Sequence record: OR896821.1
Length of the DNA stretch: 46,458 nucleotides
Reading direction: 5' to 3' (one strand)
DNA from: Escherichia phage Phagiculus
Made by a program: the position numbers and the translations under genes. The notes beneath the pieces are model-generated. The model ran no database searches. It worked only from the letters and a program-made list of their open reading frames with translations, and was not told the DNA's origin. The stretch's first letter is position 1. Each line of letters begins with the position of its first letter. Shown one piece after another: positions 101-44,005 of this stretch.

Positions 101-3073
101 TTAATTGTAACCCTTAAGAAAATTATAAAGCCTACCGCCTTGCTGCGCTGACTTCTCAAGCTCCTCAGCGACAATCAGTCTCACACCGCTCTCAATCGCC
201 TTAGCTTCTCCATCTGAGTTGCTTGAGCCGCCAACATTGACCGTAACTCCGCCAACGTTAACAGATGTTAAGCCGCCGCCAACAAGACCGCCATTCGCAT
301 AACCAGCGCTTAGATTGCCAACTGAGCCGCCATTAGCATATCCACGCATTAGCTTGTAAAGGTTTCCAACGCCAATCCTTGAAGTTGCCTCTTTTGTAAA
401 TACAAACTCTCCTTTGTGAACCGTGCCAGCTGGTTCGTACTTGCCACCGTTACCAGTGTAGCCGCCATCAGCGAAACCTAAAGCAGATATTAGCCCACTG
501 CCAGAGCTAGCTGCCGAGCCGCCACCAAAACTGCTGATAGTTGACTCAATAGCTTTAACTATAAGTAATTGAGTAGCAATCTTAGCGATCTGCTGAAGTA
601 TTGACGCTGCAAACTCCTTAAAGTTCGCCTTACCAGTAGTGAGGAGGCTTGTGATATTGTCTGTAATTCCAGTTAATACACTCTTTGTTAGATCGTAGCT
701 TATTTGGGCGAGGTTAGTTGCTTCAGCTGTGTAATCTTTAAATGCATCACTGGCGCCAGCAAGGAAGTCAGACCTTGCTAAATCCTCCTGCTTATAGAAA
801 GCCTCCTGAGCATCCCTAATTGCTTTATAGTCAGGGGAGTCAAGACTTCCACCCCTATTTAGCTGGTAAGATTCAGCTTTCGCCCTTTCTTGATTTCTGG
901 CATTCTCTATAGACCCGCTACCCCTATTGGATAGAGCAGCAGTCTGAGCAGCTAATTCTCTAGCCTTTTTAAGGTTATCGTCCTGAAGTTTATTCGCCCT
1001 TTCCTGCAAAACAATCTGATCGCCAAGTTCAGCTTTCTGTCTTGCCAATTCGAGAACCTTATCTTTCTCAATGAGAAGTCTGGCCTGCTCTCTTTTTATT
1101 GTACCAGCGTCCCGGCGCTCCTCGAGGATTGCAAACTTAGCTTCTTCGGCGAACAGCTGCTTGCGTTCATTACTGATTACGTCGCTAATCTGGCGGTGAT
1201 CTTTAAGAACCCTAAGCTGAGCCTCTAATGCAAGGACTCCAGACTCGTAGCTCAGCGTCAAATCTCTTTGGCTACCTACACCCTCCTTGCGCTTCTTGTT
1301 GGATTCCTCAATATCCTTAAGCTCCTGCTCTCTTGCCTTCCTACGCTTTTCAAATTCAGCGTCTGACTCACCCGTCCTTTGCTTCTCATCCTGAGAAGGC
1401 GTTACATAACCTAACTCACCTTTACGAATCCTAGCATCTCGCTCAGCGATTGACTTGATTAGCTCCTGATTGGCCTTCTCTATACCCTGGTTCTGCTCCT
1501 CAAACTGCTTAATTAGATCACTACCCACTCCTTTGGCCCCTGGTATCTTCTGGAAGGCCTTTAGAGAGGAAATCAAAAAGTCGTTGATGAGAATGTCACC
1601 CTGACCAATAAACAAACTGATTTGCTCAATTGTTTTAGCAACAACATCAGTGATAAGGTTGAGAGCGCCAAGCGTCCTGTTTCCAATGTCAGTCCAAATT
1701 CTTGATATGAAGTTCCTGAAGCCCTGCCATGCTCGCTCAAGTGGTGTAAGTGATTCGGCAACTTTAGTAAGGCGATTCTCCATAACATCAGCGAATAACT
1801 TAGTGGCAGCCGTTACAGCTTGCGTTTCACCTTGCGTAACCCTGATTTGCTCAATGTATTTAAGCTGACCTGCGGTTAAGAAGTTAAACTGCTTATCTAG
1901 CTCAGCAAGACCTTTGACCGGGTCATTTGCAATCTTGTCGAAGCTCTTAACGATATCTTCAGCTGAGTCACCAGTTACTGTGGCCCATCTAGCGGTTGCC
2001 TCTGTGATAATAGAAATCTGCGCTACAGTGCGATTGCCGCTAGCAACCAAACCTTTGGCAATCTCTTGACCAAGCCCCTGAGTTGCACCAGCAGCTTCTG
2101 ACGCGTTCCTGGCAAGATTCTGTATCGCAGCAGCAGATAAATTCGCATTCTGCCCAGTCAGTGTAAGAGTCTTTTCAAGCTGCGCCGTATTCTGGTATGC
2201 CTGGTAAGCCGACAATCCTAAAGCACCAAGAGCTACACCAAGCGCGCCAGCTGCAACTATAAAAGGATTCAATGCTGCAAGTGCAAATCTGAAGGTGTTA
2301 GCCACACCGCCAAAGCTATCTTTAATCTGTCCACCCTGCTGGATTGCAATCAACCAGATTGGAATACCGCCAGCGAGTGAGGTCCCGATATCTGTAATTT
2401 GCGCTGGCAACTGCCTGATTGCGTTTCTATACTCACCAGCGCTAAGTCCTGACTTTCTGAATGCACCGGACTGAGCCGACAATGCCGCAGAAGCTCTATT
2501 TGATGCATCAGCTATCTGATTAATAATAGGCGCCGCCTGGCTTGAAACACCCAACTCAGCAGCGCGAAGCTTAAGTAATTCCTCTCGAGTTAGTGTCGCC
2601 GCCTGCGCCTCCGCCTGCAAAGACTTAAGGAATCTTTCTGCCTGAGTCGCCGCTGTAGCTTTTGCCTTTGATGCCTCTATCGCCGCTCTGCCTTCCTCTG
2701 TCAAGGCGCGCTGATTCGTTCTCAGGCGATTTGTTTGCGTCTCCAGTGCCTCGCTTAAGCGGTAGAACTCAGCCTCTGGAACAACTCCAGCCGTAAAAGC
2801 CTTGTCCAGTGAGTTCGCGGCTTCCTGCAACTTACGCAGCTTTGATGCGGTCGGGTCGATTGCTGATTGTAAAGACTGAAAGGCGCTACGCTGCTCAGAA
2901 AGATAACGAGCTGTATCTCTTGCTTGATTTTTTGCTACCTGTTCGGCGTTAACGAAGCTACTAATTCCAGCTGCAGCTTGCTCGTTTGCGCGCTTAAATT
3001 CCTGCAACGACCTAGTGCCCTGGTCTACCTGCCTTACGTCTACGCCTAATGTAATTCCGGCAAATTCAGCCAT
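101..3073 (-). CDS. tail tape measure protein
   Basis: about 990 aa, coiled-coil rich, Gly-rich C-terminus, directly downstream of chaperone G/GT and upstream of M-L-K-I-J; GGAGG RBS before ATG at 3073 (ORF-track start at 3121 lies upstream of the terminator-like hairpin). Confidence 0.85.
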
Positions 3074-3083
3074 ATTACCTCCA

Positions 3084-3110
3084 TAAAAAAACCTCCACGA
3101 GGGAGGTTTA
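3084..3110 (-). terminator. intrinsic terminator-like hairpin between chaperone GT stop and tape measure start
   Basis: minus strand ACCTCC-CTCGT-GGAGGT followed by TTTTTTT, then GGAGG RBS. Confidence 0.45.
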
Positions 3111-3434
3111 TTTCTTAACATGCTGCATCATATCCAGAGCCTTATACTCAAGTATGCGCAGGTCGTTTAAAACCATCTCTTTATCTTTGACATTATACAC
3201 ATCAAAGAGAAATGGTAGTACTGAATAATCTAATCCTGTCGCGCCGTTCATCCCGACTCGCCATTGAGTAGCGGAAGCCTGATAGATATTCCATGCGCAC
3301 ATCATGTCATCATCGAAGAATAATTCCTCTGGCCCTTCATCTTCGTAATCTGAGCGGCGCATACCAATAGCTTCAAGTTCCGCATCTGTAGGCTCCTTCT
3401 GATACTGGAGGAATACGGCGCGTTTTAGTTTTTT
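3108..3434 (-). CDS. tail assembly chaperone T-frame extension (expressed as G-T fusion by -1 frameshift)
   Basis: -1 frame open from slippery site to stop at 3108; covers the ORF-track 84-aa ORF. Confidence 0.6.
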
Positions 3435-4564: not shown

Positions 4565-5215
4565 TTATGCTGCCAGGAAGCTGTAGCGTCCTCGTACCGT
4601 AATTGCTACGGATACAGTTTCGATTTCGTTAACAGAAACGTTTGGCGTTTCGTTGAATGCGATAGTGCCAGTCCACAAGCGAACTTCACCAGCCTTAGGT
4701 ACGTATGCGCGAATCGCCAGAAGTGCACCAGTCTCATCGTAGTTGCGAAGGATTGGGTAAATCGGGTTGGTGAAGTCGTGCGCAAAGGTGTAAGTGGTGT
4801 TAACAGCTGACTTATAAGTCGGAATCTGCTGCTCACGGTCATCTGCCAGACACTGATAGGTAACAAACTGCTGTTCACCGCCGTCAGTAGAAACATCCTG
4901 AATACAAGGCATTTCATACCAGCTAAGAATCTTGTAGATTACCGCGGTGCCGCCAGCAGGGAACTGCATAACGTCGCTAGTGTCGATACCTTCGACGGTA
5001 ATAGTTGTTGCAGTGGTGCTAACTACTCGCAGTTGCTTCTCGGAAAGCTTAGACCAGCTTGAGGATTCAACAACGATAAAGTCACCACTTGCAAAATCAG
5101 AAGCGTCAGCAACCGTCATTACTGGTTGGGCTGCGTTGCTTACTGCGGTTACCTGAACTGATTCTCCAGCTGAACCCTGGATAAAGATTTGAGTACCGTT
5201 ACTCAAGTGTGCCAT
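4565..5215 (-). CDS. major tail (tube) protein
   Basis: position between neck/tail-completion genes and chaperones; AAGGAG RBS before ATG at 5215; flanked downstream by strong terminator. Confidence 0.55.
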   Translation of the reverse strand: MAHLSNGTQIFIQGSAGESVQVTAVSNAAQPVMTVADASDFASGDFIVVESSSWSKLSEKQLRVVSTTATTITVEGIDTSDVMQFPAGGTAVIYKILSWYEMPCIQDVSTDGGEQQFVTYQCLADDREQQIPTYKSAVNTTYTFAHDFTNPIYPILRNYDETGALLAIRAYVPKAGEVRLWTGTIAFNETPNVSVNEIETVSVAITVRGRYSFLAA

Positions 5216-5229
5216 GTAAATCTCCTTAA

Positions 5230-5628
5230 TTAATCCATACGTACGTAGAATCGGATTGGGAAGAACCAACCAGACTGTGATTTAACCGCTGGGTGTACCA
5301 CCCCCCCTTCATATATATATCCGGTGCTTAGCATTGTACCATCGGCGAAAGCTTCTGACAATGACCCCGCTAATTGGCGAGCCCTATCAATTCCAAAACC
5401 TGGAGGGAAGAACAAAGAGACCTGAACCATACCAATATAGTATCTGCAAGTTCTCTGAAGACCCCATGTAACGGTATCAGCTTCAGTGTAATCAAACTTT
5501 AGCCACATCGAGCCATTCTTTGGCGGTGTAAAGTTGCAGTTTTCGTAAGAAACTGGCAGCGAGCCAGTAATATCAACAGCAACCCTGCTTACCAATTCGC
5601 GCGCAGCGATAGACATTTCATAGTGCAT
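5230..5628 (-). CDS. tail terminator / tail completion-like protein
   Basis: GGAAGG RBS; position in neck-tail block; start overlaps stop of upstream gene. Confidence 0.35.
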   Translation of the reverse strand: MHYEMSIAARELVSRVAVDITGSLPVSYENCNFTPPKNGSMWLKFDYTEADTVTWGLQRTCRYYIGMVQVSLFFPPGFGIDRARQLAGSLSEAFADGTMLSTGYIYEGGVVHPAVKSQSGWFFPIRFYVRMD

Positions 5629-7285: not shown

Positions 7286-8233
7286 TTAAGGGTAGGTAAT
7301 ACCCTTCAGTACAGATACGGTCAGCGGACGGTAGATAACCAGACCAGTAGACTTAGAAGTAACCGGATATTTAAAATGAAGGTCCTTAGGCTGACCCGGC
7401 AGCACATTGGTCGCTTCCGGAATCTCAATGCTGAGGTTCAGCGGATCTTTTTCAAACGCCAGTGCTGCTTTACCGCCCGCGCCATCGTAGTTATCCAGGA
7501 ACTGAAGGTAACGGATGGTAAGGCCAGGGTTGTTACGAGTAAACAGTTCACCATAACTAATGGTAGTACCAGCAACCAGGCCCTGCATTACTCGACGAGC
7601 GGATGCCGGAAGAATGATGTCAGTTACATGGTGAATGCCCTGGGTTGCAATTTCAACAGAATCAATCATTGAAGTAATATCATCAACCGCGTTCTTGGCA
7701 TCAGTCCAGCCACTTGCATTAGCAGTAATCTGGTTGACGTTAGGCGCGTTGAATACGCTGGTAATGCCATGAGGCGTAGAGCCTTGCCAAACCAGTTTAT
7801 CAAGCAGGTTGTCGTGAGCTTCAAATGCCAGCGCCTGTTTGCGAGATTGCAGAGGCTGACCAGTTGCAGCGCCAGCTTTGATTTCATCAACGGACACCAG
7901 GAAGGCGTTACCGAATCGGAAAACTTTGCCCTGCTTCTCAGTCATGAAAGCATCAACCAGCGGCAGGTCATCAGAGTAATCAGCGATAATCTGAGCGATA
8001 CCTACGCCATCGAATTCCGGGTATTCAAAGTATTTTGCGTGGCTTGGGATTTCGTTACTTACAGGGAAGATATTAACAACGGAGTTATCCGGGTATTCTT
8101 TCTCGTAGTTACGCTTGAGGGTTTCGGTAAGCTGCTTGACGGTCCAGATACCAGCCGCATCAGCCTTTTCGACGCCCATTTGCTCGAGGTGAGCCGTGAT
8201 TTTAGCCTGTTCGGCGTCTAACTTAATAGCCAT
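7286..8233 (-). CDS. major capsid protein
   Basis: 315 aa, position after scaffold/decoration genes, own sigma70-like promoter and strong terminator. Confidence 0.65.
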   Translation of the reverse strand: MAIKLDAEQAKITAHLEQMGVEKADAAGIWTVKQLTETLKRNYEKEYPDNSVVNIFPVSNEIPSHAKYFEYPEFDGVGIAQIIADYSDDLPLVDAFMTEKQGKVFRFGNAFLVSVDEIKAGAATGQPLQSRKQALAFEAHDNLLDKLVWQGSTPHGITSVFNAPNVNQITANASGWTDAKNAVDDITSMIDSVEIATQGIHHVTDIILPASARRVMQGLVAGTTISYGELFTRNNPGLTIRYLQFLDNYDGAGGKAALAFEKDPLNLSIEIPEATNVLPGQPKDLHFKYPVTSKSTGLVIYRPLTVSVLKGITYP

Positions 8234-8311: not shown

Positions 8312-9853
8312 TTATGGCAGCTTGAATGTCTCAATCCTAATTGCGATGTTAAAACTAGTATCAGCTGGGCGCTGAAGGTGAAAAACATCAATCATTATAA
8401 TGTTTTTATCTCCCCAATCTCTAGCTGAGAATTGAATTCTTTTATATCCCCCACCAGTATAACCCGCAGGATCACCTACAACATACCTGCTAGTTCCTGC
8501 AATTGTGTGGTTTGACTGATATCTCTTAACTACGTCAGCGGATGGAAAGTTTACAACCTCAACATCAAAATACCTTCCTGCAATTGAGTTGCCTACAAAA
8601 GAGTACTCAATGTTATTCCCAACCCTTCTTACTGAAAAAGAGATGCCAGGGTTGTTTGGTATAGCTATAGCTGAGTAGCTTGTCGATACGGTAAGTTGAG
8701 TTGTATAAACTGGATTGTTTGTATTATTTTGACCTGCTGGACCCTGTGGGCCGGTTGCGCCAGTTTCGCCTTTTTCTCCTTTGTCGCCCTTTTCGCCCCT
8801 CTCTCCCTGTGGTCCTTGTGGCCCCACCGCTCCAGCAACGCCTCTAATGCCTTGCGGCCCTTGAATACCCTGAGGTCCAGTATCACCTTTTGGCCCTTGA
8901 GGACCGGCTGGTCCAGTAATACCCTGCAATCCTTGATCACCTTTTGGCCCCTGTTCACCTGGTAAACCTTGAATACCTTGCTGGCCCTGAACCCCTCTTG
9001 GACCCTGCTGTCCTGTTTCTCCTTTTTCACCTTGAGGGCCGATATCACCAGGGTCGCCTTTTTCACCCTTATCACCCTTCGTCCCCTGAGCGGCAAGAAC
9101 AACCCACAGAGGTGATACTCCAGGTTCCTCATCTTCTGCAATGTTGCTAACTGCGAAGTAGGTTGAGCCACCGTAAACTACGGTATCATCTTTTGCATAA
9201 CCAGTATCAGGAACCCATTGCCCACGGAATGTTAAACCAGCAGGCCCGACTTCGCCAGGATCACCTTTCTCACCAGTATCACCTTTTAATCCTTGCGGAC
9301 CTTGTGGGCCGATATCACCCCTATCTCCCTTGTCGCCTTTCAAGCCTGCTGGGCCTTGAATTCCCTGTGGACCTTGAATACCTTGAGGGCCAATTGGTCC
9401 TTGTGGACCTACCGCACCACGCTCACCTTTTTCCCCATCAGCGCCATCGTCACCCTTTGGACCCTGCGGACCCTCTGGTCCAACTTCCCCTCGTGGACCT
9501 TGAGGACCTTGCGGACCAGCCATTCCATCCCTGCCAGATGTTCCCTGAAACCCTTTAGTTAACGCAACTGCAAACTGATTTGACTCGGATGAAGGTTCGC
9601 CAAAAACCTCCCAACCTTCGTGAGTGATTTCGTTTACTCTATCAATTAGCTTTTGGCGACTGGTTGCACTCAGAACCATGAAGTCGGTAATATCTGCGTT
9701 AGTTCCCTTAGCTACAACCATGCCAATAGTGTTAGAGCCAGTGCCTGTTAATACTCTATCAAATGGCTGCCAACCTTCTGCAATTGCCTCTAGCACCTTG
9801 CGGCTAAGTGATGCCGTGTTACCAGCAAGGATTTGCCTAAATTCTAAAGCCAT
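8312..9853 (-). CDS. collagen-like repeat protein with embedded CBM5/12 (ChtBD3)-like segment
   Basis: two long Gly-X-Y runs (GPQGPQGPRGEVGPEGPQGPKGDDG... and GDKGEKGDPGDIGPQGEKG...) separated by WVPDTGYAKDDTVVYGGSTYFAV...PLW; non-collagen N- and C-terminal domains. Confidence 0.8.
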   Translation of the reverse strand: MALEFRQILAGNTASLSRKVLEAIAEGWQPFDRVLTGTGSNTIGMVVAKGTNADITDFMVLSATSRQKLIDRVNEITHEGWEVFGEPSSESNQFAVALTKGFQGTSGRDGMAGPQGPQGPRGEVGPEGPQGPKGDDGADGEKGERGAVGPQGPIGPQGIQGPQGIQGPAGLKGDKGDRGDIGPQGPQGLKGDTGEKGDPGEVGPAGLTFRGQWVPDTGYAKDDTVVYGGSTYFAVSNIAEDEEPGVSPLWVVLAAQGTKGDKGEKGDPGDIGPQGEKGETGQQGPRGVQGQQGIQGLPGEQGPKGDQGLQGITGPAGPQGPKGDTGPQGIQGPQGIRGVAGAVGPQGPQGERGEKGDKGEKGETGATGPQGPAGQNNTNNPVYTTQLTVSTSYSAIAIPNNPGISFSVRRVGNNIEYSFVGNSIAGRYFDVEVVNFPSADVVKRYQSNHTIAGTSRYVVGDPAGYTGGGYKRIQFSARDWGDKNIIMIDVFHLQRPADTSFNIAIRIETFKLP

Positions 9854-11050: not shown

Positions 11051-12154
11051 TTATTTTTTCAATTTAGCGAGGCGAGCTCGCGGGTCTAATTTCTTAGGCG
11101 CGTCGGCTGCATCGGATTTGTCAACGCCATCTACTTTAGCGCGTACTTCAGCCATTTTATCAGACTCTTTGGCGATATCAAAGGCTGCATCGATGTATGC
11201 ATCAGATTTCTCAGACACATTCAGGCCGGAAACCTCTTTAACGTAAGCAACTTTAATTTGCTTAGCGTCGAGTCCGTCACACTTAATGCCAACTTCGGTA
11301 GCTTTAGCAACCAGGTCAGCCATTACGGCGGAATCAGCTTTAAACTTCTCAATGGCTGCTTCGATTTCTTTATCCATGCCATCAACTTTAGCTTTCAGCA
11401 TATCCCGCTCTGCGGTGATGCCTTCAATCTTTTCTTTTGTATCTTTGGCATCTGCTTTGATAGCTTCGATGTGTGCCGCAACTTCTGGGGCGATTTCAAA
11501 CTCCTGTGCGCCATCCAGTTTAATTTTAACCATTTCTGAATCCTCTTTAGTTAATTGAACGTCATCATTATATGGGTTTTCTTGCTCACCGTCCAGATTA
11601 AGTTTGGCGACACCTGCGCGACCTTTATGGACTAGCGCGATATGATTCACTAAGATGTTAGTCTGAAGCGCGTCAAAGCGGACCCAATCAGAAGGGATTT
11701 CTTCCTGACTGGCATAATCACCATCCAGTTTATACTCTCCAGTCTCATTACTACCCCAGCCGCCAGTATTAACATCAACCGTGCTGTAACCTACTGACAA
11801 TTCGCCAGCATCTCCAGATTTAGCCTTTTCGATAGCCTCCTTGTCGTAAATTGTCAAAGGAACTACCACGTTAGAATCCTGACGCTGACCAACACCATTT
11901 ACAGAACCAACCACAGTCTCCTTTGCGTTGTCAGGGCTCACAAACACGTGACCTAAGGTTAGCGGCTTGCCCATATACGATTCCAGTGAATCGCTTTTAA
12001 AGACCTCTGAAGCAGGGCGAAATTCACGACGAACTCCACCATCTGCTGTTGCGTACTCCTGCACTCCGACACGCGCAACTACGGGCGTGTCGACCAGGAA
12101 TCCGTTTTCATCGAAGCGGGCCTTAACCCGCGCTGTATCGAAACGAATTGCCAT
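11051..12154 (-). CDS. capsid scaffolding protein (DUF2213-like N-terminus plus K/E/A/D-rich coiled-coil C-terminus)
   Basis: composition and position between portal and capsid genes. Confidence 0.5.
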   Translation of the reverse strand: MAIRFDTARVKARFDENGFLVDTPVVARVGVQEYATADGGVRREFRPASEVFKSDSLESYMGKPLTLGHVFVSPDNAKETVVGSVNGVGQRQDSNVVVPLTIYDKEAIEKAKSGDAGELSVGYSTVDVNTGGWGSNETGEYKLDGDYASQEEIPSDWVRFDALQTNILVNHIALVHKGRAGVAKLNLDGEQENPYNDDVQLTKEDSEMVKIKLDGAQEFEIAPEVAAHIEAIKADAKDTKEKIEGITAERDMLKAKVDGMDKEIEAAIEKFKADSAVMADLVAKATEVGIKCDGLDAKQIKVAYVKEVSGLNVSEKSDAYIDAAFDIAKESDKMAEVRAKVDGVDKSDAADAPKKLDPRARLAKLKK

Positions 12155-13514: not shown

Positions 13515-15083
13515 TTATCTAATTCCAGCTAGTCGCTTCAGAGCTGCTTTAGGGTCATCTGCGAGGTTAAGTTCACAGTTGATAGCCATTGTTGTGGTAT
13601 CCACGATGTCATCATGAAGGTGACTGTCGTCAGCAGTGAATGCAGCAAACTCAGCAAGGAATGCAGGCAACCAGGGCGCAGACTCTGGCAAAATAACGTT
13701 ACCAGCCTTAATCTGAGGTAATGCACTCATTACTCGCGTAAGTTTGTCGCTGTCCGGAACAAACGGCTCTATAGGTGTTCTCATCGTTCTGCTTGCTGAC
13801 TGAATCAGTCCGATGCCAGACGCCTTCTTCTCGATGATAACTTTGCGAAGGATTCCGTCAATCTTATTCATTGAGCGGGCCTTAGCTTCAAACTCGACGA
13901 GAGTAGCCTCAAGTTCAGGCGCTTCCCATTTGCCGCGAACCATGTCAAGTAAGTAAGCCTTACGGTCCTTAACTCCCCACAGCTGGAATACGGAGAAGTC
14001 GCTATAGCTCTTAGTAGTCATCGCAGTGTCAGCCGTGATAAATCGGTAATCGTACTTAGCTGGAGGTCTGTTGTTCTCATCAATTCGAGCAAACCAGTCT
14101 ACGTTAACCAGGTTTCCACCTAGAGCCACTGGCTCCTGCTGGTACTGACTCATGAATGTGTAGTGGTCAGAGTCCATCATAGACACCAGGTCGTGAACAG
14201 ATTCCTTTTTAGGGAAGTAGCTATAATACTTCACGCCATCGCGTTCAACATATTCGCTTGATAGCACGTCATCAATGAATTGCTGCTTAATCCAATCAGG
14301 CAATGTATCGACGTAATCTTCAGTAACTAGCGCAGGAATCTTAACCACATCGAAGTCTATACCCATACCACCAGAAGTCATGAACCAAGTTGAGTCGTTC
14401 ACGTGCAAGCGCTGCTGGATGGAAAGAATTGGCGTGGCCTTACCTTTTACCGAACTTGCACGACGAGAGCGAACGGTGTTTTTAAGAAGCGTATGAACAG
14501 CCTCTCTGCGAACCTTGCTAAACATGTCGTCTGCTTTATCAATATCATCCAGCATTAAACAGCCGCTATAATTATCAGTGATATATCCCCCGCGAGCGCC
14601 AATTATCTGACCGCCAATCGCCTTAGAGATGGACTCAAACCTGACCTTTCCAGACTCATCAAGAACCTGAATCTCATCATCCTTGCATGTTCCAAACTTA
14701 GACGGGAATAACTCCTGGAACTCAGTTGACTTAATCAGGTCACGCACCCGCTTTGAGTTACGCTTCACCAGACTATCCGAGAACGATAAGTTAAGGTTCC
14801 TAACCTTTTGTAGCTTGAGCATTGAGTAGACTGGAAAGTGGATTGAAGTAATCTCAGTCTTACCAGCACCAGGCGCTACGTTAATGATTGTATCTTTGCG
14901 CTCGCCACTGATTACCTCGTCGATGATTCTGCAAAGGTACTTGTGATGCCAGTTGGGGATATAGCGTTCGCCCTGTGTTAGCTGAAACCACACCCGAAGG
15001 AATGCCTCGAAGTTGTGAGTGGATAAAGCTTTAACTGCCAGCTTTTCGGCTGGCGTCATATCTTCCCAAACTAGTGTATTCAT
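13515..15083 (-). CDS. terminase large subunit
   Basis: Walker A VAPGAGKTE; 522 aa; ATGA overlap with upstream small gene. Confidence 0.85.
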   Translation of the reverse strand: MNTLVWEDMTPAEKLAVKALSTHNFEAFLRVWFQLTQGERYIPNWHHKYLCRIIDEVISGERKDTIINVAPGAGKTEITSIHFPVYSMLKLQKVRNLNLSFSDSLVKRNSKRVRDLIKSTEFQELFPSKFGTCKDDEIQVLDESGKVRFESISKAIGGQIIGARGGYITDNYSGCLMLDDIDKADDMFSKVRREAVHTLLKNTVRSRRASSVKGKATPILSIQQRLHVNDSTWFMTSGGMGIDFDVVKIPALVTEDYVDTLPDWIKQQFIDDVLSSEYVERDGVKYYSYFPKKESVHDLVSMMDSDHYTFMSQYQQEPVALGGNLVNVDWFARIDENNRPPAKYDYRFITADTAMTTKSYSDFSVFQLWGVKDRKAYLLDMVRGKWEAPELEATLVEFEAKARSMNKIDGILRKVIIEKKASGIGLIQSASRTMRTPIEPFVPDSDKLTRVMSALPQIKAGNVILPESAPWLPAFLAEFAAFTADDSHLHDDIVDTTTMAINCELNLADDPKAALKRLAGIR

Positions 15084-15595
15084 AGCTTATCCATAATTGA
15101 TTCAAGTGCGGCCTTCATAACTTCTTCATCGTTAACAACAGCACTAGATGCGTTGTTGATGTTAACTTCTTGAGGCTTGTCGATACCTAAGTCTTTACCA
15201 ATCAGACTAGAGTTAACGATGTTATTCACACCCAGCTGATACTTCTGCTCAAAGATGACTGAATCTACAAACTCCATAACTTCAGAGAAGCCAGGGGATG
15301 AGCGCCAGTGGCTAATGGCATTTCCCGTAACCCCGCAAAATAATTGGAATCCGTTAATGGTGAAAACTCGCGGCTTATGAATAAGGTTCTCAGTAACAAT
15401 CCCCTGATGAGATGCAGTTTCAATAGCCTTAATTGCCTGGCTCTCTGCCCAAGTGAAATACCTTACCGCCATATCAAACAATTGCTCTGGCGTGAACTTG
15501 TGGTTAATCTTCAGGTTAGCAATATCTCCGTACTTCTTGTTGTAAAGCTCCTTGAAGTTACCAATCTTCTGGTGAATCTTCTTCTCTTCTTGCAT
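15080..15595 (-). CDS. terminase small subunit (putative)
   Basis: 171-aa ORF translationally coupled to terL; AAGGAGG RBS before ATG at 15595. Confidence 0.45.
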   Translation of the reverse strand: MQEEKKIHQKIGNFKELYNKKYGDIANLKINHKFTPEQLFDMAVRYFTWAESQAIKAIETASHQGIVTENLIHKPRVFTINGFQLFCGVTGNAISHWRSSPGFSEVMEFVDSVIFEQKYQLGVNNIVNSSLIGKDLGIDKPQEVNINNASSAVVNDEEVMKAALESIMDKL

Positions 15596-15643
15596 GCGAT
15601 ATTCCTCCTTTGTTGAAGGCCATTGTACCACAGCTACAGACGT

Positions 15644-15665
15644 AAAAAAGCCCTCCGAAGAGGGC
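15644..15665 (-). terminator. intrinsic terminator upstream of terS
   Basis: minus strand GCCCTC-TTCG-GAGGGC followed by TTTTTT. Confidence 0.6.
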
Positions 15666-15688: not shown

Positions 15689-15871
15689 TTAAATCAATTT
15701 GAGGGTGTCAATCTGAAACTTGTGCGTCTCCGGGTCCGCGCCAGAGAGCGCTTTACATTTAGCTACCGCTTCCTCTGAGGACTCCGCGGTAACGGACGCT
15801 TCAAAACGCTGCTTGCATGATGAGCATCTGCGGCCCATCTTGTAGATAGTCATTGCGACTTTATAGTTCAT
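15689..15871 (-). CDS. hypothetical protein (60 aa, Cys-containing)
   Basis: AAGGA RBS before ATG at 15871; the ORF-track start at 15919 would overlap the tRNA. Confidence 0.4.
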   Translation of the reverse strand: MNYKVAMTIYKMGRRCSSCKQRFEASVTAESSEEAVAKCKALSGADPETHKFQIDTLKLI

Positions 15872-15889: not shown

Positions 15890-15965
15890 TGGCGTTCCGC
15901 GCTGGACTCGAACCAGCAACTGAGACTTAGGAGGTCTCTGCGTTATCCCGTTACGCCAGCAGAAC
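15890..15965 (-). tRNA. tRNA-Arg (anticodon CCU)
   Basis: hand-folded cloverleaf: 7-bp acceptor GTTCTGC/GCGGAAC, D-stem GCGT/ACGC, anticodon stem GAGAC/GTCTC with loop CTCCTAA, T-arm GCTGG-TTCGAGT-CCAGC, discriminator G, encoded CCA. Confidence 0.8.
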
Positions 15966-16150
15966 TTAAATTATAGCCGGTTACGGAATCCGGCGGGCTT
16001 TCACAATGCCCCGACAAGTCCGACTTACATCATTTGCGCTGACTGCGGTAATGTGACTAGGTCTCCTCGACCAGTTGGGCGTTGCGCCCCTCTTATGTCC
16101 ACAAGGCAAATAATAAAGGCTCACACATTTAAGTGCAAGCCCTTTTGTTA

Positions 16151-16270
16151 TCAATCTGATTGTTTGCCTGCTTTTTGATCATCAGTAGCGGATGCAATCA
16201 TGTAGACGATAATGAACCCTAGTGACCAGATAATCCAGGGAAATGCTTCTGCGTATAATTGATTAGTCAT
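16151..16270 (-). CDS. small membrane peptide (39 aa, MTNQLYAEAFPWIIWSLGFIIVYMIASATDDQKAGKQSD), not in ORF track
   Basis: ATG overlaps stop of upstream gene; one predicted TM helix. Confidence 0.35.
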   Translation of the reverse strand: MTNQLYAEAFPWIIWSLGFIIVYMIASATDDQKAGKQSD

Positions 16271-31016: not shown

Positions 31017-31076
31017 TCAAAAAATACCACCTAAACGGTGGTATTTTTGTATGCAATGTAGATGAGGAGAGTAGAC

Positions 31077-31988
31077 ATGAACTACGATAAGAATGAAGTT
31101 ATTTCCAGAATGAAGGGGCTTTGGCCTGACGCTCTCGTTAAGCTGTGTGGGGTAAATCCAGCGGTATTCAAGAGCAGAAAGCATCAGCCATGCATCTACT
31201 GTGGAGGAACTGACAGGTTTCGATGGACAGACAAGGTTAATGAGCAGGGTGACGGAGGCGCTATCTGCAACCAGTGCGGCGCTGGTGATGGCATTAAGTG
31301 GATTGAGAAGATGAGGGGTGAGTCTTTTAGCGAGGCCGTAAATACTGTTGGTGAGTGGCTGAATCTCGTCCCTGTTGAAGTCGTTAACAAGGCAAACAAA
31401 TCCGCAAGCAGGGTTCAGCGCTATAAGAATGGCGCTCAATCATCTCCAGAATTAATAGAGAAGGTAATGTCTCGCACCAAGTCGGTAGAAATCACACAGC
31501 TAACGAGATATGAAGCCATTATTGCTGAGCGTGAATACAAAATAGGCATCAATGAGTCTGGAGAGGAAATTATAGCCGAGCAATGCTTTATGGTTTACGA
31601 GGATGGATTTGCTGACGAGCCTTGCAACGTAAAATTTATCAATGAAGAAGGTAATGAGTCATACCTTGCAAAAGATTATACACGCGGTTCGATAGTTCCG
31701 GTCAGTGAATGTAATGAAGGCTCTATCTATCTAACAGTTGGCTGGGTTAATGCAATGCATGTCGCGGAATGTACAGGAAGGACGACATATGACTGCCTAA
31801 CGCATTACAACCTAGAGATGGTTGCGTACGAACTCAGGAATAAAGACTGCCGCATAGCCTGCCTCAGAGATGATAAGGAGTCGCTTTATGTTGCTGACGA
31901 CAGGTGCATTAAAGTTGTTGTTCCAAATGGAAACTCATTCAAGAATGGATTGGAGAGAAAACTATATTCACCACAAGATTTAATCTAA
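31077..31988 (+). CDS. DNA primase (zinc-ribbon N-terminus)
   Basis: CIYCGGTDRFRWTD...CNQCGAGDG zinc-binding motif typical of phage primases. Confidence 0.6.
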   Translation: MNYDKNEVISRMKGLWPDALVKLCGVNPAVFKSRKHQPCIYCGGTDRFRWTDKVNEQGDGGAICNQCGAGDGIKWIEKMRGESFSEAVNTVGEWLNLVPVEVVNKANKSASRVQRYKNGAQSSPELIEKVMSRTKSVEITQLTRYEAIIAEREYKIGINESGEEIIAEQCFMVYEDGFADEPCNVKFINEEGNESYLAKDYTRGSIVPVSECNEGSIYLTVGWVNAMHVAECTGRTTYDCLTHYNLEMVAYELRNKDCRIACLRDDKESLYVADDRCIKVVVPNGNSFKNGLERKLYSPQDLI

Positions 31989-32060: not shown

Positions 32061-34745
32061 ATGGCAATTTATGACGCTGGCACAGCATCAATGACAGCTA
32101 ATGGCATTGTTACTGGCGTTGGTACTTCATGGCAACAACCTCTAACCCTCATTAGGGTTGGGGCTACAATGGTATTTAAAACAAATCCAGTTACCGCTGT
32201 AACAGTTGCTGAGATTATTAGCGACACAAGTATTCGTGCATTCAATACAAAATCAACTGTAGTTCCGGCTGGCACTCAGTACTTCATTTTGGCTCACGAT
32301 GGAATCACAGTTCAGGGACTGGCTCAAGACGTCGCTGAAACACTGCGTTACTACCAGTCACAAGAAACGAGCGTTGCCTCCTTGGTACAACTTGCGCAGT
32401 CTGGTGATTTTGACTTTGATCGCCTTGAGACTTTGGTTAATGAAGCTAAGTCAAGCGAGACAAACGCAGCATCAAGCGCATCGTCTGCGGCGGCAAGTCA
32501 GCAAGCGGCAGCAACAAGCCAGGCTCAGGCGGAATCAAGTGCCTCAAGTGCTCAGAGTGCATATAACAATACCGTTAATGCTATTGCTAATGCTGGGGAT
32601 GCATCAACCTTGGTTACTCTATCTGGATGGGGCATAGGTTCAAGTAGTGGAATGACACTTTTGGATTCTCTTGATTTTCAGAACTTTACTTTTGTAATCG
32701 GTGCTTACTATAGGGTTGCTTACTCAAATGTAACAAATGCGCCTCCTTCACTTGTCGTACCAACAACTGCAACCCTCGTTATAAATGTAACTAGCGGCGG
32801 AAGCGTAAACAATAGGGTTATGGATGTGGCAACATATACCGCATCTGACAATAACTTTAGGAAGTACAGCCTGTCATACAACGGCGCGCCAGGCTCTAGG
32901 GTTTTTTATGTTAGGGAGTCTATTTATTTGCCTGGTGGATCTGAAGTTGGTGGGGCTAACGCTCAAAGGGTTAGGGGTTTGCTTGATGTTTACTCAAAAG
33001 CTGAGTCTGATGCAGTGAGAACTATCGCGCTTGGTGGAACTGGTGCTACAACCGCTGCCGCTGCAAGGGAAAACCTTGATGTCTTCTCGCGCGATGAATC
33101 AAGACCCCAGCTTAAATCTTCATCATACCCAAATCTTCTTGATGCGATTACTGATGCAGTATCAAAGGGATATGATTTGTTGATTGACAGGGCAGAGAAT
33201 ATTACCCAGCCAATAAGACTGTCACTATCTGGAAGGGATTTCTCAATAAAAAGCACATCCGACGGTTGGATTAATTTTACACCATCTAATCCTAACACCT
33301 ATTATCAGGTTCTTACTTTTGACGGAACAGGTGTCGAGAGATTGATTACAGAAGTAAAAATTGATGGAGGAAAAGTTCGCGGTGTAGGTCGTGCAATATT
33401 GGGTATAGCGTCAAACTATGTGGCTTACCATAAAGAATCATCTGAAATGAGGAATATATCTGCTGGCGTTAACTGCACTGGCGCTAAGTTGCATGAGTGT
33501 GTTGGTGCTTATTATTATAATGTATTCCAGCAGCTTGCAAGTCAGGACTGGAGTGCTGGTGTTTATGGTTATGGCTGTGTTCCTATCGACTGCAAAACGG
33601 TAGTTATCTCTGGGTGCACGTTTGGTATTGAATCCATGCCTCTTGATCGACACGCAGTTTATTCTAGTTCAAGAGATGACGGAACGGGATACAATGATTT
33701 TGTTTTCGTTTCAAAAAACAACTGTTACATGCGTGATTATTCGTCAGAGACTGCGGAGACAACGTTTGAAAGGTGCTTTAAGTTCATTGGAACTAAAAAT
33801 GTTGTTGTTGATTCTAATGTTGTTATTGGTGGTTATGGCGGTGTCTTAATAACCTGCCGCAAGGACGATAGGGTTAACTATGTTGGTGTATCAAATAATA
33901 GCTTTAGAGTCTTCTCTTCTGGAGTTGAAGTTTCATACCAGGACGCAGCAGCTCAGAACCAATCAACAGCAACATGGTCAGTTGGAACTTTAAAAGTTAA
34001 CGACAACAGGTTTGATTTGACGACAAATGCGTCTGGTATATCGAATGGGATTGCGTGGAGGAATGTTGATAAAGTTTATGATTTCAATAATTACTACACT
34101 CAGCTTTCTTACCCATCCAGCACTGGTTTGACTGTCTTTTACCCGCGGTCTGATAGGATTAGGTCTTCACTCTTCATTTCCAAGGGTAGTCACTATTCAG
34201 GATTCAATAACATAACAAGGGAAATGGCGCCAACAGTAACTAGTATTGAATTAACCTGCCAGAACGCTGTTAGTTCACAGACTCCACTTAACGCGACAGG
34301 AGCAAATAACCAGTATGCTTTCGTAAGGTCTATAGATGGAAGTGCATCGTGGAGGACCTACACTGGGTCTTCAATACCTGGCTTTAGGTATTTTGACTCA
34401 ACATTAAATAAGGTTATATATAATACCGGAACTGGAACTTGGAATGATGAGAGTGGCTTTTTAAGTGTTGGCACGCTAGCATCAAGACCGGATGGTGTAC
34501 CTGTTAACTTTAGGTATTGGGAGGTGGATCAATCAAGGTATGTTGTCTGGACTGGCTCTACCTGGGTTTTATCAACAAAGTCATTCTCTCCAACACCTTT
34601 AGCTGCAACAACTGCTCAGATAAAAGCCATAGATAAAACAATACTTGGCTACGGGCATGTTGTTTATGATACTACAGCTAAAAAGCCAGCGTTCTTTGAC
34701 CAGCTTGCTCAGGCATGGAGGTATGCAGACGGAACGGCGATATAA
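32061..34745 (+). CDS. tail fibre protein
   Basis: 894 aa, Ser/Ala/Gln-rich fibrous segment, Gly/Ser/Thr/Asn-rich C-terminal region. Confidence 0.6.
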   Translation: MAIYDAGTASMTANGIVTGVGTSWQQPLTLIRVGATMVFKTNPVTAVTVAEIISDTSIRAFNTKSTVVPAGTQYFILAHDGITVQGLAQDVAETLRYYQSQETSVASLVQLAQSGDFDFDRLETLVNEAKSSETNAASSASSAAASQQAAATSQAQAESSASSAQSAYNNTVNAIANAGDASTLVTLSGWGIGSSSGMTLLDSLDFQNFTFVIGAYYRVAYSNVTNAPPSLVVPTTATLVINVTSGGSVNNRVMDVATYTASDNNFRKYSLSYNGAPGSRVFYVRESIYLPGGSEVGGANAQRVRGLLDVYSKAESDAVRTIALGGTGATTAAAARENLDVFSRDESRPQLKSSSYPNLLDAITDAVSKGYDLLIDRAENITQPIRLSLSGRDFSIKSTSDGWINFTPSNPNTYYQVLTFDGTGVERLITEVKIDGGKVRGVGRAILGIASNYVAYHKESSEMRNISAGVNCTGAKLHECVGAYYYNVFQQLASQDWSAGVYGYGCVPIDCKTVVISGCTFGIESMPLDRHAVYSSSRDDGTGYNDFVFVSKNNCYMRDYSSETAETTFERCFKFIGTKNVVVDSNVVIGGYGGVLITCRKDDRVNYVGVSNNSFRVFSSGVEVSYQDAAAQNQSTATWSVGTLKVNDNRFDLTTNASGISNGIAWRNVDKVYDFNNYYTQLSYPSSTGLTVFYPRSDRIRSSLFISKGSHYSGFNNITREMAPTVTSIELTCQNAVSSQTPLNATGANNQYAFVRSIDGSASWRTYTGSSIPGFRYFDSTLNKVIYNTGTGTWNDESGFLSVGTLASRPDGVPVNFRYWEVDQSRYVVWTGSTWVLSTKSFSPTPLAATTAQIKAIDKTILGYGHVVYDTTAKKPAFFDQLAQAWRYADGTAI

Positions 34746-43600: not shown

Positions 43601-44005
43601 ATTACTTTCCTGCTTAACAAGACGAGGCCAGAATAACTTCACTCGAATCGCTGAAAGCTGATTGTTAGTTACTGAAATGATGTACGGGGTATCATTATTG
43701 ATTTCTCTGGATACCTGGAACTCAGATGATGCCCCATCAAGACCCGCAATGTAATTTTGCGATTGCGTGCCAGGGCGAAACTGAGCGCTTACACCTTCAT
43801 AGTTGAAAGAGTTATCCGCGTTCTGAACGGGAACATCTGCAAGGTACAAATCCTTAAGTGAGAAGCTAGAGTCAACCTCGCCATCGGCAACAGCAAGCAG
43901 AACCTTAATCTTGTTCAGTGAAATCAGGTTATCTTCTTGCTCAACTGGTGTGTGTGTCTTTTGACTACCACCCTTGCTTCCGTAAATCTTTGGCAAATCG
44001 GCCAT
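40649..44005 (-). CDS. tail tip / host specificity protein J-like (central tail fibre)
   Basis: about 1120 aa; N-terminal SKGGSQKTHTPVEQEDN resembles lambda J; fibronectin-like middle region; start among three close ATGs (44044/44035/44005). Confidence 0.85.
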   Translation of the reverse strand: MADLPKIYGSKGGSQKTHTPVEQEDNLISLNKIKVLLAVADGEVDSSFSLKDLYLADVPVQNADNSFNYEGVSAQFRPGTQSQNYIAGLDGASSEFQVSREINNDTPYIISVTNNQLSAIRVKLFWPRLVKQESNGDLNGTTCEYAIDLSVNGGAYTQYTRGVANGKTTTGYDRSIRVNLPAEFSSALVRIRKITPDSTSSTLVNGMQITTYQEVIDAKFRYPLTALVYVEFSSDLFPNGIPTIAIKKKWKLIRVPTNYNPETRQYSGTWDGTFKMAWSNNPAWVLYDLVVSQRYGLDQRELGVEIDKWGLYEAAQFCDQMVPDGKGGLEPRYLCDVVIQQKVEAYQLIRDICSIFRGLTFYDGEKIGIVVDKPRQPSYVFTNDNVVDGLFSRTFSSDKSLYTTANVQFDDEQNNYQQDIEPVFELEATRRFGFNPVDLSAIGCTRRSEANRRGRWLLKTNLRSETISFTTGLEGMIPMVGDVIAVNDQAWSSNYTLNLSGRIVEASGLQVFVPFAIDAEPGDRILINKPDGSPEYRTIASVSQDKLTIELNTAFSFNPQPDTVFAIDKQNLALQQYVVTGIQKANTDGDDSFQYNITAVQYDPNKYDEIDYGVNIDDRPTSIVDPDRILPPENLRVSSYSKVVQGLSVETMVIGYDKVQYAKTYNVQWRKNNGNWINVPETANTEVDIEGIYAGIYDVRVRAVTDQKSVSAWSEIVTVSLTGKIGEPEPLAVITASDDEVFGIRVKWGFGENSADTAYVELQQVPDNGDGTYSPENASLLSLVPYPQYEYWHTTLPAGNVRWYRARAIDRIGNVSQWTEFVRGMASDDVTAIIGEIKVDIEDSDGYKYLLQNAINSNTDIQNQAEAIIENALANDIDVRIMTRENGARKAEYRQAVNLIADETQARVEALTQLKAQIDDEIVGQITTIETALATETEARATADTALSARLGENEAALNEKLDTYATAEGVGVQYGVKLGLKYQGMEYGAGMSMELVGSGGNVRSQFIFDANRFAISNGISQGSGQWSLPFVVENNQVFIQSAVIQDGSITNAKIGNAIQSNNFVANNTGWRLDKAGTFENNGFTAGEGRMKQTNQTISVADANGRLRVQIGRLTGTF

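What the first reader, a model, noticed from the sequence alone, without database searches (positions are those of the whole stretch)
15890..15965. tRNA-Arg(CCU) directly upstream of the terminase genes
A cloverleaf with anticodon CCU, reading the AGG codon that is rare in enterobacteria, is encoded on the late strand between the early genes and a small gene preceding terS. A phage tRNA at the head of the packaging/structural operon could supplement a limiting host tRNA during late expression.
Basis: seen in the sequence. Interest (0 to 1): 0.5.

Follow-up and report, generated by a model that had tools for sequence, protein, structure and literature searches.

The report
Phage tRNA-Arg(CCU) reading rare AGG
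This is a genuine arginine tRNA gene in a T1-like coliphage that reads the AGG codon, which the phage uses about eight times more often than E. coli; the same gene, with the same explanation, is already published for relatives such as Rogue1, so the finding is correct but ordinary.

Summary
ARAGORN and Rfam both call a 76-nt tRNA-Arg(CCU) at 15890-15965 on the minus strand, the same strand as terS and terL. Its cloverleaf is the minimum-energy fold. It is kept in 10 distinct homologues, with three compensatory pairs.

The window is a divergent Rogunavirinae-like (T1-like) phage. About 40 relatives carry this tRNA at the same site. The Rogue1 paper already describes it as "recognizing the rare codon AGG".

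Codon counts fit supplementation of AGG decoding:
- AGG is 10.0 per mil in the window, 1.3 in an E. coli sample and 5.0 in tRNA-less T1.
- It is enriched in late structural genes (11.6 vs 6.9 per mil, p=0.005), mainly the tape measure and distal tail-fibre modules.
- CCU carriers use AGG more than UCU carriers do.

The "head of the late operon" claim needs correcting. A small ORF, a conserved intrinsic terminator and a conserved extended -10 promoter lie between the tRNA and terS.

Side finding: a conserved, covarying two-hairpin element, possibly pseudoknotted, sits just 5' of the tRNA. It precedes different tRNA cargo in relatives and persists in T1, which has no tRNA. Its function is unknown.

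The parts
15890..15965 (-). tRNA-Arg(CCU) gene, 76 nt, with encoded CCA. The anticodon is at 15931..15929.
   Evidence: ARAGORN. Rfam RF00005, 56.9 bits. MFE fold is a cloverleaf. Covariation in homologues.
15976..16013 (-). Conserved two-hairpin leader element. 5' flank CG, then P1 GGGC-AUUGUGAAA-GCCC, then P2 GCCGG-AUUCCGUAA-CCGGC. A pseudoknot between the flank CG and the CG of L2 is possible.
   Evidence: Alignments. Hand-registered pair counts. Formal count: 99.2% paired vs 72.5% in shuffles, and 8 of 11 pairs changed on both sides. A model built on UCU-type copies scores this window copy only 12.7 bits, E about 1. No Rfam match at E<=10.
15966..15975 (-). 10-nt linker (UAUAAUUUAA) between the leader and the tRNA 5' end. 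Presumably a short RNase P leader.
   Evidence: Sequence. The linker is A/U-rich and semi-conserved in relatives.
16110..16138 (-). Promoter-like site, TTGCAC-N17-TATTAT. It aligns with the better conserved TTGAC(C/G)-N17/18-TAGTAT + CGTAGAC of relatives. It overlaps a hairpin at 16144..16115.
   Evidence: Alignment and sequence. It falls below the scan tool's -35 threshold (3 of 6), so it was not listed. Inferred, not shown.
15689..15871 (-). 60-aa ORF of unknown function (PHROG 2919; homologue of Rogue1_0014, rtp17 and T1 gp56). Its Shine-Dalgarno sequence lies in the tRNA 3' trailer.
   Evidence: PHROG hit, E=3e-26. Annotation of relatives. Sequence.
15644..15665 (-). Intrinsic terminator, GCCCUC-UUCG-GAGGGC followed by U6. 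It lies between the tRNA/ORF unit and terS.
   Evidence: Terminator scan. Conserved in Rogue1, Sd1, JK06, AKS96, Sf12 and L099. T1 annotates a terminator at the same place.
15622..15630 (-). Extended -10-like element, TGgTACAAT, directly upstream of the terS Shine-Dalgarno sequence (15609..15604).
   Evidence: Conserved block. TGGTATAAT in L099. Promoter function is inferred.
15080..15595 (-). terS (small terminase subunit). terL follows at 15083..13515.
   Evidence: PHROG 606, E=4e-57, and PHROG 38, E=1e-108.

Best explanation
The gene encodes a functional tRNA-Arg with anticodon CCU. Host RNA polymerase transcribes it as part of a short unit: promoter-like site, structured leader, tRNA, 60-aa ORF, terminator. 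Host enzymes process it, with RNase P cutting at the 5' end; the CCA is already encoded. Host ArgRS charges it, since the tRNA carries A20, C35, U36 and G73. It then adds to the very small host pool of AGG-reading tRNA (argW, plus wobble reading by argU). This allows the phage's AGG-rich genes to be translated without stalling, chiefly the tape measure protein and the distal, host-range parts of the tail fibres. Shown here: the gene, its fold, its conservation, the identity nucleotides and the codon statistics. Inferred: transcription, processing, charging and the fitness benefit.
For: The tRNA is real and under structural selection. A20, C35 and U36 are invariant across all homologues, and the discriminator is always a purine.

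AGG per mil in ORFs of at least 100 aa: window 10.0, Rogue1 12.4, RTP 8.6, T1 (no tRNA) 5.0, E. coli 50-kb sample 1.27.

Within the window, late structural genes have 11.6 per mil against 6.9 elsewhere (Fisher p=0.0047). As a share of Arg codons this is 25% against 14% (p=0.0012). AGG clusters in the tape measure (20 codons), the side tail fibre (25, of which 24 lie after codon 218) and J (13, of which 12 lie after codon 460).

Across relatives, eight CCU carriers have AGG 10.0-14.1 per mil and AGG/(AGG+AGA) of 0.49-0.73. Five UCU carriers have 4.7-10.8 and 0.38-0.55. Three phages without an Arg tRNA have 5.0-6.9.

The same slot always holds an AGR-reading tRNA when it holds an Arg tRNA. The CCU anticodon also occurs on a second, argU/RTP-type backbone in metagenomic contig L099, which points to selection for AGG reading as such.

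The Rogue1 authors published the same reading (PMC3496638).
Against: All of the evidence is correlative, and the phages compared are phylogenetically clustered. Causality could run the other way, with the tRNA simply relaxing selection against AGG. The most highly expressed late genes avoid AGG and AGA entirely: major head 7286..8233, major tail 4565..5269 and scaffold/protease 11051..12154. Supplementation is therefore either incomplete or matters only for moderately expressed tail genes. T1 manages with 5 per mil AGG and no tRNA. No expression signal is proven, and the promoter-like site in the window is weak by consensus.
Confidence: 0.7

Rival explanations
1. Counter-defence or replenishment. 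The tRNA replaces host tRNA-Arg that is depleted during infection, either by tRNA-targeting nucleases (colicin D-type enzymes cleave tRNA-Arg anticodon loops) or by general host RNA shut-off. Its main role would not be to match codon usage.
For: The general hypothesis is published for phage tRNAs (PMC10264068). T1 and RTP carry polynucleotide kinase in the same small-ORF region, and RTP also has an Stp-like PrrC activator there, so the family does interact with tRNA-cleaving systems. The tRNA body differs strongly from argW (63% identity) and has a different anticodon stem.
Against: The 7-nt anticodon loop CUCCUAA and the 38/39 junction are identical to those of E. coli argW. The diagnostic signature used in that paper, anticodon-loop mutations, is therefore absent. 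No Pnk or other tRNA-repair gene was found among the window's upstream small ORFs. This idea does not explain why AGG usage tracks the anticodon type.
Confidence: 0.15
2. Near-neutral cargo. The slot behind the conserved leader is a recombination hot spot where tRNA genes come and go, and this tRNA persists without a measurable benefit.
For: The cargo varies widely: Arg-CCU, Arg-UCU, Trp+Arg, Arg+Val, Ser-GCU, and none in T1.
Against: Purifying selection on the structure, with compensatory changes, is seen over about 20% sequence divergence. The identity elements are invariant. The CCU anticodon arose on a second backbone. Codon usage is co-adapted to the anticodon.
Confidence: 0.08
3. Mainly a cis-acting role. 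The tRNA serves as an RNase P/RNase E processing signal that separates the leader from the downstream ORF mRNA, or forms part of a regulatory cassette together with the leader. Decoding would be secondary.
For: The tRNA is embedded 10 nt after a conserved structured leader and 19 nt before the next ORF's start codon, and that ORF's Shine-Dalgarno sequence lies in the tRNA trailer.
Against: T1 keeps the leader and the ORFs without any tRNA. A pure processing signal would not need conserved ArgRS identity elements or an anticodon matched to codon usage.
Confidence: 0.07

Closest known systems
tRNA-Arg(CCU) of Rogunavirinae phages (Rogue1, JK06, AHP24/AHS24/AHP42/AKS96, Sd1, Sf12, phiEB49)
   Same: Same gene at the same site, between the small ORFs and the rtp17-like ORF upstream of terS. 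Identity is 92-97%, or 80% for the Opt-719 group. The anticodon and the identity nucleotides are the same. The published interpretation is the same: 'recognizing the rare codon AGG' (PMC3496638; PMC4070988).
   Different: No database copy is identical; the best is 97.4%. The window has G17 where all the others have A17. The surrounding genome is divergent: the best hit covers 41% of the query at 77% identity.
tRNA-Arg(UCU) of RTP-type (Braunvirinae) T1-like phages
   Same: Same slot behind the same leader element, and it also reads an AGR codon. Identity to the window tRNA is 74%, with a similar T arm and 3' acceptor strand.
   Different: The anticodon is UCU. The D arm and anticodon arm are argU-like, with 82% identity to E. 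coli argU and an identical anticodon arm. It is not annotated in the RTP RefSeq record.
E. coli argW, tRNA-Arg(CCU)
   Same: Same anticodon, an identical 7-nt anticodon loop CUCCUAA, A20 present, and a 4-nt variable loop.
   Different: Only 63% identical. No blastn match was found in 5,426 E. coli genomes. The anticodon stem differs, and the discriminator is G73 against A73. The phage gene is therefore not a recent copy of the host gene.
Codon-compensating tRNAs of virulent phages (the T4 and T5 clusters; Bailly-Bechet et al. 2007, as cited in PMC10264068)
   Same: A virulent phage with lower G+C than its host carries a tRNA for a codon that it uses much more often than the host does.
   Different: This is a single tRNA rather than a cluster. 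It sits in a dedicated slot behind a conserved structured leader.
HK022 put antiterminator RNA (compared with the leader element only)
   Same: Two adjacent stem-loops with a 0-1 nt junction, downstream of a promoter and upstream of a co-directional operon punctuated by intrinsic terminators.
   Different: put RNAs are about 70 nt, with two long stems and a base triplex (PMC9378689). This element is 36-40 nt, with 4- and 5-bp stems. No sequence similarity was established and no function has been tested. This is an analogy, not family membership.

Membership tests
tRNA (Rfam RF00005) | Covariance-model score above the curated gathering threshold | tested here: met
   56.9 bits against a threshold of 29, with the full-length model 1-71 matched.
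tRNA (Rfam RF00005) | Cloverleaf with 7/4/5/5-bp stems and the conserved tertiary nucleotides (U8, A14, G18G19, U33, T54-psi55-C56, A58) | tested here: met
   The cloverleaf is the MFE fold. The nucleotides are visible. 99.5% of cells are paired in homologues, with 3 compensatory pairs.
tRNA-Arg, isoacceptor CCU | Anticodon C34-C35-U36 | tested here: met
   ARAGORN reports anticodon cct. It is invariant in all 11 phage homologues.
tRNA-Arg, isoacceptor CCU | E. coli ArgRS identity elements: A20, C35, U36 or G36, and a purine at position 73. This list comes from established knowledge and was not re-derived here. | tested here: met
   A20, C35 and U36 are invariant; position 73 is G or A. This tests presence in the sequence only.
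tRNA-Arg, isoacceptor CCU | Actual expression, 5'/3' processing and arginylation | not testable with these tools
   This needs a Northern blot or tRNA-seq and a charging assay.
Codon-compensating phage tRNA | The cognate codon is much more frequent in the phage than in the host | tested here: met
   AGG is 10.0 per mil in the window and 1.27 in the E. coli sample.
Codon-compensating phage tRNA | The cognate codon is enriched in late or highly expressed genes | tested here: inconclusive
   The late structural block is enriched (11.6 vs 6.9 per mil, p=0.005). However, the major head, major tail and scaffold genes have no AGG at all.
Codon-compensating phage tRNA | Presence and type of the tRNA covary with codon usage among relatives | tested here: met
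   CCU carriers 10.0-14.1 per mil, UCU carriers 4.7-10.8, none 5.0-6.9. This is descriptive only: the sample is small and phylogenetically clustered.
Nuclease-evading phage tRNA (van den Berg et al. 2023) | The anticodon loop differs from the host isoacceptor at or near the cleavage site | tested here: not met
   The loop CUCCUAA and the A38/G39 junction are identical to argW.
HK022 put-type antiterminator RNA (for the leader element) | About 70 nt, with two long stem-loops and a triplex in stem I | tested here: not met
   The element is 36-40 nt, with 4- and 5-bp stems. The put description comes from PMC9378689.
HK022 put-type antiterminator RNA (for the leader element) | Confers terminator read-through on RNA polymerase in cis | not testable with these tools
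   This needs reporter assays or in vitro transcription.

The most novel reading that the evidence does not exclude
The interesting object may be the slot rather than the tRNA. A compact, possibly pseudoknotted two-hairpin RNA is conserved across Drexlerviridae subfamilies. It lies downstream of a conserved promoter and upstream of a terminator followed by the late genes. It persists in T1, which has no tRNA, and is duplicated in one metagenomic relative. It could be a new cis-acting RNA, for example a processing or stability element or a small put-like antiterminator. Such an element would control expression of what follows and would define a site where AGR/AGY-reading tRNAs are repeatedly swapped in, including an independent UCU-to-CCU anticodon switch.
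Probability: 0.25. Interest if true: 0.6.

Novelty: already known. Interest (0 to 1): 0.22.

Why it matters
The tRNA itself adds little. It is one more, somewhat divergent, copy of a gene already annotated in about 40 T1-like phages and already interpreted as an AGG decoder.

This analysis adds quantitative support for that interpretation: codon counts, enrichment in late genes and tail fibres, co-variation of the anticodon with AGG/AGA preference, and a second backbone that acquired CCU. It also corrects the operon picture.

If the conserved leader element proves functional, it would offer a tractable small system. It could be used to study how virulent siphoviruses express and exchange tRNA cargo, and possibly how T1-like phages transcribe through their many late-operon terminators.

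Tried and rejected
1. My first bracket string for the tRNA alignment was out of register with the gapped columns and gave a meaningless 38% paired. It was redone in register.
2. I tested for a recent host origin. blastn of the tRNA against 5,426 E. coli genomes found nothing, so this was rejected.
3. RNAalifold on a MAFFT alignment of the leader predicted no pairs, and a second MAFFT attempt also split the stems. The cause is mis-registration between groups with different loop lengths. I therefore used a hand-registered, loop-stripped alignment, which is biased towards the structure.
4. A covariance model built from UCU-type leaders found an untrained copy (39 bits) and T1 (21 bits, E=0.005). 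It scored the window's copy only 12.7 bits (E about 1), at the level of antisense-tRNA noise. For the window, the leader therefore rests on synteny and covariation, not on model score.
5. I considered the leader as a tRNA remnant, because blastn of the T1 element hit records annotated tRNA-Ser. The match in fact lies upstream of those tRNAs, and Rfam gives no tRNA hit there even at E<=10, so this was rejected.
6. I considered the leader as a homologue of HK022 put and rejected it on size and architecture.
7. The TATAAT at 15975..15970 cannot be the tRNA promoter. It is window-specific, has no -35 element, and would start transcription inside the tRNA.
8. The metagenome scan with terS returned only 7 loci, of which one was informative. 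The IMG/VR scan with terL returned about 13 close relatives, mostly phages already in GenBank.
9. A search for Pnk or tRNA-repair genes among the window's upstream small ORFs found none.

Full report
OBSERVATION. ARAGORN finds a single tRNA in the 46,458-bp window: tRNA-Arg, anticodon cct, at 15890..15965 on the minus strand. Rfam's tRNA model scores it 56.9 bits (gathering score 29, E=9e-10 for the whole window) and no other family reaches threshold. Read on the minus strand, the gene is GUUCUGC-UG-GCGU-AACGGGAUA-ACGC-A-GAGAC-CUCCUAA-GUCUC-AGUU-GCUGG-UUCGAGU-CCAGC-GCGGAAC-G-CCA. The CCA is encoded and the anticodon lies at 15931..15929. The cloverleaf is both the minimum-energy and the centroid fold.

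WHAT THE WINDOW IS. The region matches T1-like siphoviruses of the Drexlerviridae, subfamily Rogunavirinae (Rogue1, JK06, Sd1, Sf12 and others), at about 81% identity. Over 25 kb the best genome hit covers only 41% of the query at 77% identity, so this is a divergent member of the group. PHROG searches confirm several genes:
- terS at 15595..15080;
- terL at 15083..13515;
- major head protein at 8233..7286;
- tape measure at 3121..101;
- a fibre-like protein at 9853..8312;
- central fibre J at 44044..40649;
- a side tail fibre at 32061..34745;
- primase at 31062..31988.
The 60-aa ORF that follows the tRNA (15871..15689) belongs to PHROG 2919, function unknown. It is homologous to Rogue1_0014, rtp17 and T1 gp56.

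CONSERVATION AND PRIOR KNOWLEDGE. Forty phage records hold a homologue of the tRNA at 80-97% identity. None is identical, and most are annotated tRNA-Arg. Across 10 distinct sequences the cloverleaf pairs in 99.5% of cells. Three pairs change on both sides (11-24, 27-43, 49-65), and pairing collapses to 26-47% when the register is slid. A20, C35 and U36 are invariant and the discriminator is G or A. From established knowledge, these are the E. coli ArgRS identity elements.

[quoted passage not shown] The AHP24-group paper lists "1 arginyl-tRNA" (PMC4070988). The finding is therefore already known for homologues.

ORIGIN. The tRNA has no blastn match in 5,426 complete E. coli genomes. It is 63% identical to argW (CCU), 64% to argU (UCU) and 74% to the tRNA-Arg(UCU) of phage RTP. 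The RTP tRNA is 82% identical to argU and has an identical anticodon arm. The phage tRNA's 7-nt anticodon loop, CUCCUAA, is identical to that of argW.

FUNCTION: CODON EVIDENCE. I used greedily chosen non-overlapping ORFs of at least 100 aa. This method is crude, but it was applied identically to every sequence. AGG per mil is 10.0 in the window, 12.4 in Rogue1, 8.6 in RTP, 5.0 in T1 and 1.27 in a 50-kb E. coli K-12 sample. In the window AGG makes up 21% of Arg codons, against 2% in E. coli.

Within the window, the late structural genes carry 88 AGG in 7,618 codons (11.6 per mil), against 6.9 per mil in the rest (Fisher p=0.0047). As a share of Arg codons this is 25% against 14% (p=0.0012).

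The distribution is very uneven. The tape measure has 20 AGG, the side tail fibre 25, J 13, the fibre-like protein 8 and the primase 7. The major head protein, the major tail protein, the scaffold/protease and the 10513..11040 gene have no AGG or AGA at all. In the side fibre, 24 of 25 AGG codons lie after codon 218. In J, 12 of 13 lie after codon 460. These are the distal, host-range parts, whereas the conserved N-terminal modules use CGN.

Across relatives:
- eight CCU carriers show AGG 10.0-14.1 per mil and AGG/(AGG+AGA) of 0.49-0.73;
- five UCU carriers show 4.7-10.8 per mil and 0.38-0.55;
- three phages without an Arg tRNA (T1, L027, L028) show 5.0-6.9 per mil.
A bias towards A+T alone would favour AGA over AGG, as seen in T1 and RTP. 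AGG at or above AGA is specific to CCU carriers.

A metagenomic relative, L099 (terS 80% identical), carries a CCU anticodon on the argU/RTP-type backbone: ACGAC-CUCCUAA-GUCGU. That indicates an independent U34-to-C34 switch. All of this fits AGG supplementation, but it remains correlative, and the compared phages are not phylogenetically independent.

ARCHITECTURE: CORRECTING THE "HEAD OF THE OPERON" PICTURE. On the minus strand the order is as follows:
- a tiny hydrophobic ORF, 16270..16151;
- a hairpin, 16144..16115, overlapping a promoter-like TTGCAC-N17-TATTAT, 16138..16110;
- about 95 nt of spacer;
- a two-hairpin leader, 16013..15976;
- a 10-nt linker;
- the tRNA, 15965..15890;
- 18 nt containing the Shine-Dalgarno sequence of the next gene;
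- the 60-aa ORF, 15871..15689;
- a strong intrinsic terminator, GCCCUC-UUCG-GAGGGC-U6, 15665..15644;
- TGgTACAAT, an extended -10 element, 15630..15622;
- AGGAGG, 15609..15604;
- the terS start codon ATG at 15595.

The block of terminator, extended -10 and Shine-Dalgarno sequence is conserved in Rogue1, Sd1, JK06, AKS96 and Sf12 and in L099. T1 annotates a rho-independent terminator at the same place. The tRNA is thus separated from terS by a terminator, and terS has its own promoter-like element.

A caveat applies. The late block of the window contains at least seven strong sites on the same strand with a hairpin followed by a T-run (15665, 13501, 10506, 7279, 6940, 4550, 3109). T1's late region is annotated likewise. 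Terminators in these phages may therefore attenuate transcription rather than mark absolute operon ends.

THE SLOT AND ITS LEADER (side finding). Relatives carry different tRNAs at this site:
- Sd1 has Trp(CCA) plus Arg(CCU);
- phiEB49 has Arg(CCU) plus Val(AAC);
- RTP and four IMG/VR contigs have Arg(UCU), which is not annotated in the RTP RefSeq record;
- LF82-11 and the Klebsiella phage HazelMika have Ser(GCU);
- T1 has none.

Immediately 5' of the cargo, every one of them has a two-hairpin element, including T1 at 7693..7732. It consists of a 4-bp P1 with a variable 7-11-nt loop and a 5-bp P2 with an 8-10-nt loop that ends in (C/G)GUAA. The exception is copy 2 in L099, whose loop ends CAUAA.

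In a hand-registered, loop-stripped alignment of 11 distinct sequences, 99.2% of cells pair, against 72.5% in shuffles (0 of 500 shuffles reach the observed value). Eight of 11 pairs change on both sides, and slid registers give 33-54%.

Two further positions covary. The two flank nucleotides just 5' of P1 pair with the CG of loop 2. This pairing changes G-C to C-G in the Rogue1 group, and C-G to U-A in the second, tandem copy found in L099. That suggests a small pseudoknot.

Several caveats apply. The alignment was fitted to the structure. MAFFT with RNAalifold fails on this element. A covariance model built on UCU-type copies finds an untrained copy at 39 bits and T1 at 21 bits (E=0.005), but scores the window's copy only 12.7 bits, E about 1. 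No Rfam family matches it at E<=10.

Upstream, T1, Rogue1, RTP, LF82-11 and HazelMika share a promoter-like TTGAC(C/G)-N17/18-TA(G/A/C)(T/A)AT followed by CGTAGAC. The window's version is weaker.

The element is not a tRNA remnant, since the "tRNA-Ser" blast hits lie upstream of those tRNAs. It is not a homologue of HK022 put, which is about 70 nt with long stems and a triplex (PMC9378689). Its function is unknown. The candidates are a processing or stability element for the leader-tRNA-ORF transcript, or a small cis-acting modifier of transcription upstream of the terminator-rich late genes. Neither can be tested here.

RIVALS. The counter-defence idea holds that phage tRNAs replace or evade host tRNA cleavage (PMC10264068). 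It is not excluded, but it lacks its diagnostic signature, because the anticodon loop is identical to argW. No Pnk or tRNA-repair gene was found in the window's upstream ORFs, unlike T1 and RTP. The neutral-cargo idea is contradicted by purifying and compensatory evolution and by the second CCU backbone. A purely cis-acting processing role is contradicted by T1, which keeps the leader and the ORFs without a tRNA, and by the conserved identity elements.

VERDICT. The tRNA itself is already known and ordinary. The conserved leader that defines a variable tRNA-cargo slot is the only part that might be new, and it deserves an experimental look.

Noticed in passing
window 15976..16013 (minus strand); also L015 (T1) 7693..7732, L016 (RTP) 4845..4883, L097 704..741, L098 699..736: A conserved two-hairpin element, possibly pseudoknotted, lies directly 5' of the tRNA slot in several Drexlerviridae subfamilies. 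It shows strong covariation (8 of 11 pairs changed on both sides). It is present in T1, which has no tRNA, and matches no Rfam family. Its function is unknown.
   Followed up: partly
L099 58..96 and 128..165 (metagenome contig Ga0079226_10038288): The leader element is tandemly duplicated here. In copy 2 the flank and loop-2 positions change together (C...G to U...A), which supports a pseudoknot.
   Followed up: partly
L099 175..252: A tRNA-Arg with a CCU anticodon sits on the argU/RTP-type backbone (ACGAC-CUCCUAA-GUCGU). This indicates an independent UCU-to-CCU anticodon switch in the same slot.
   Followed up: partly
L016 (RTP, NC_007603) 4893..4969: ARAGORN finds a tRNA-Arg(UCU) in the gap between rtp15 and rtp16 that the RefSeq record does not annotate. 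It is 82% identical to E. coli argU and has an identical anticodon arm.
   Followed up: yes
L004 (Sd1) 1122..1195; L005 (phiEB49) 1278..1354; L097/L098 tRNA-Ser(GCU); L027 tRNA-Asp + tRNA-Ser: The slot holds variable tRNA cargo in relatives: Trp, Val, Ser(GCU) or Asp, next to or instead of Arg. It behaves like an exchange hot spot.
   Followed up: partly
window 15622..15665 (minus strand): A strong terminator (GCCCUC-UUCG-GAGGGC-U6) is followed immediately by an extended -10 element (TGgTACAAT) and the terS Shine-Dalgarno sequence. The block is conserved in all close relatives and in L099, and T1 annotates a terminator at the same position.
   Followed up: yes
window minus strand: 15665, 13501, 10506, 7279, 6940, 4550, 3109: The co-directional late gene block is punctuated by at least seven strong sites with a hairpin followed by a T-run, as annotated in T1. 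This raises the question of how late transcription reads through them.
   Followed up: no
window 16151..16270 (minus strand): A tiny hydrophobic ORF (39 aa, MTNQLYAEAFPWIIWSLGFIIVYMIASATDDQKAGKQSD) overlaps the stop of the preceding gene. A 22-aa counterpart (MTELSIWFLAGMLTWIYFVVMA) is conserved but not annotated in the Rogue1 group. There is no PHROG hit.
   Followed up: partly
L014 (Rogue1) 3249..3371; L008 (IMM-001) 1121..1246: Some annotated 'hypothetical protein' CDSs in relatives overlap the structured leader (Rogue1_0013) or the tRNA itself (an IMM-001 CDS). These are probably spurious gene calls.
   Followed up: no
window 32061..34745 (+) and 40649..44044 (-): AGG codons concentrate in the distal parts of the side tail fibre (24 of 25 after codon 218) and of J (12 of 13 after codon 460). 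Only the N-terminal 340 aa or so of the side fibre match T1-like families. This suggests exchanged host-range modules with a different codon usage.
   Followed up: partly
whole window: The window appears to be a complete, circularly permuted genome of a divergent Rogunavirinae-like phage. The best database genome (Sd1 or JK06) covers only 38-41% of the first 25 kb, at about 77% identity.
   Followed up: partly
L015 (T1) 4948..5478; L016 (RTP) 1444..1983 and 2432..2524: T1 and RTP carry polynucleotide kinase in the small-ORF region upstream of the slot, and RTP also has an Stp-like PrrC activator there. No counterpart was detected in the window's upstream ORFs.
   Followed up: partly
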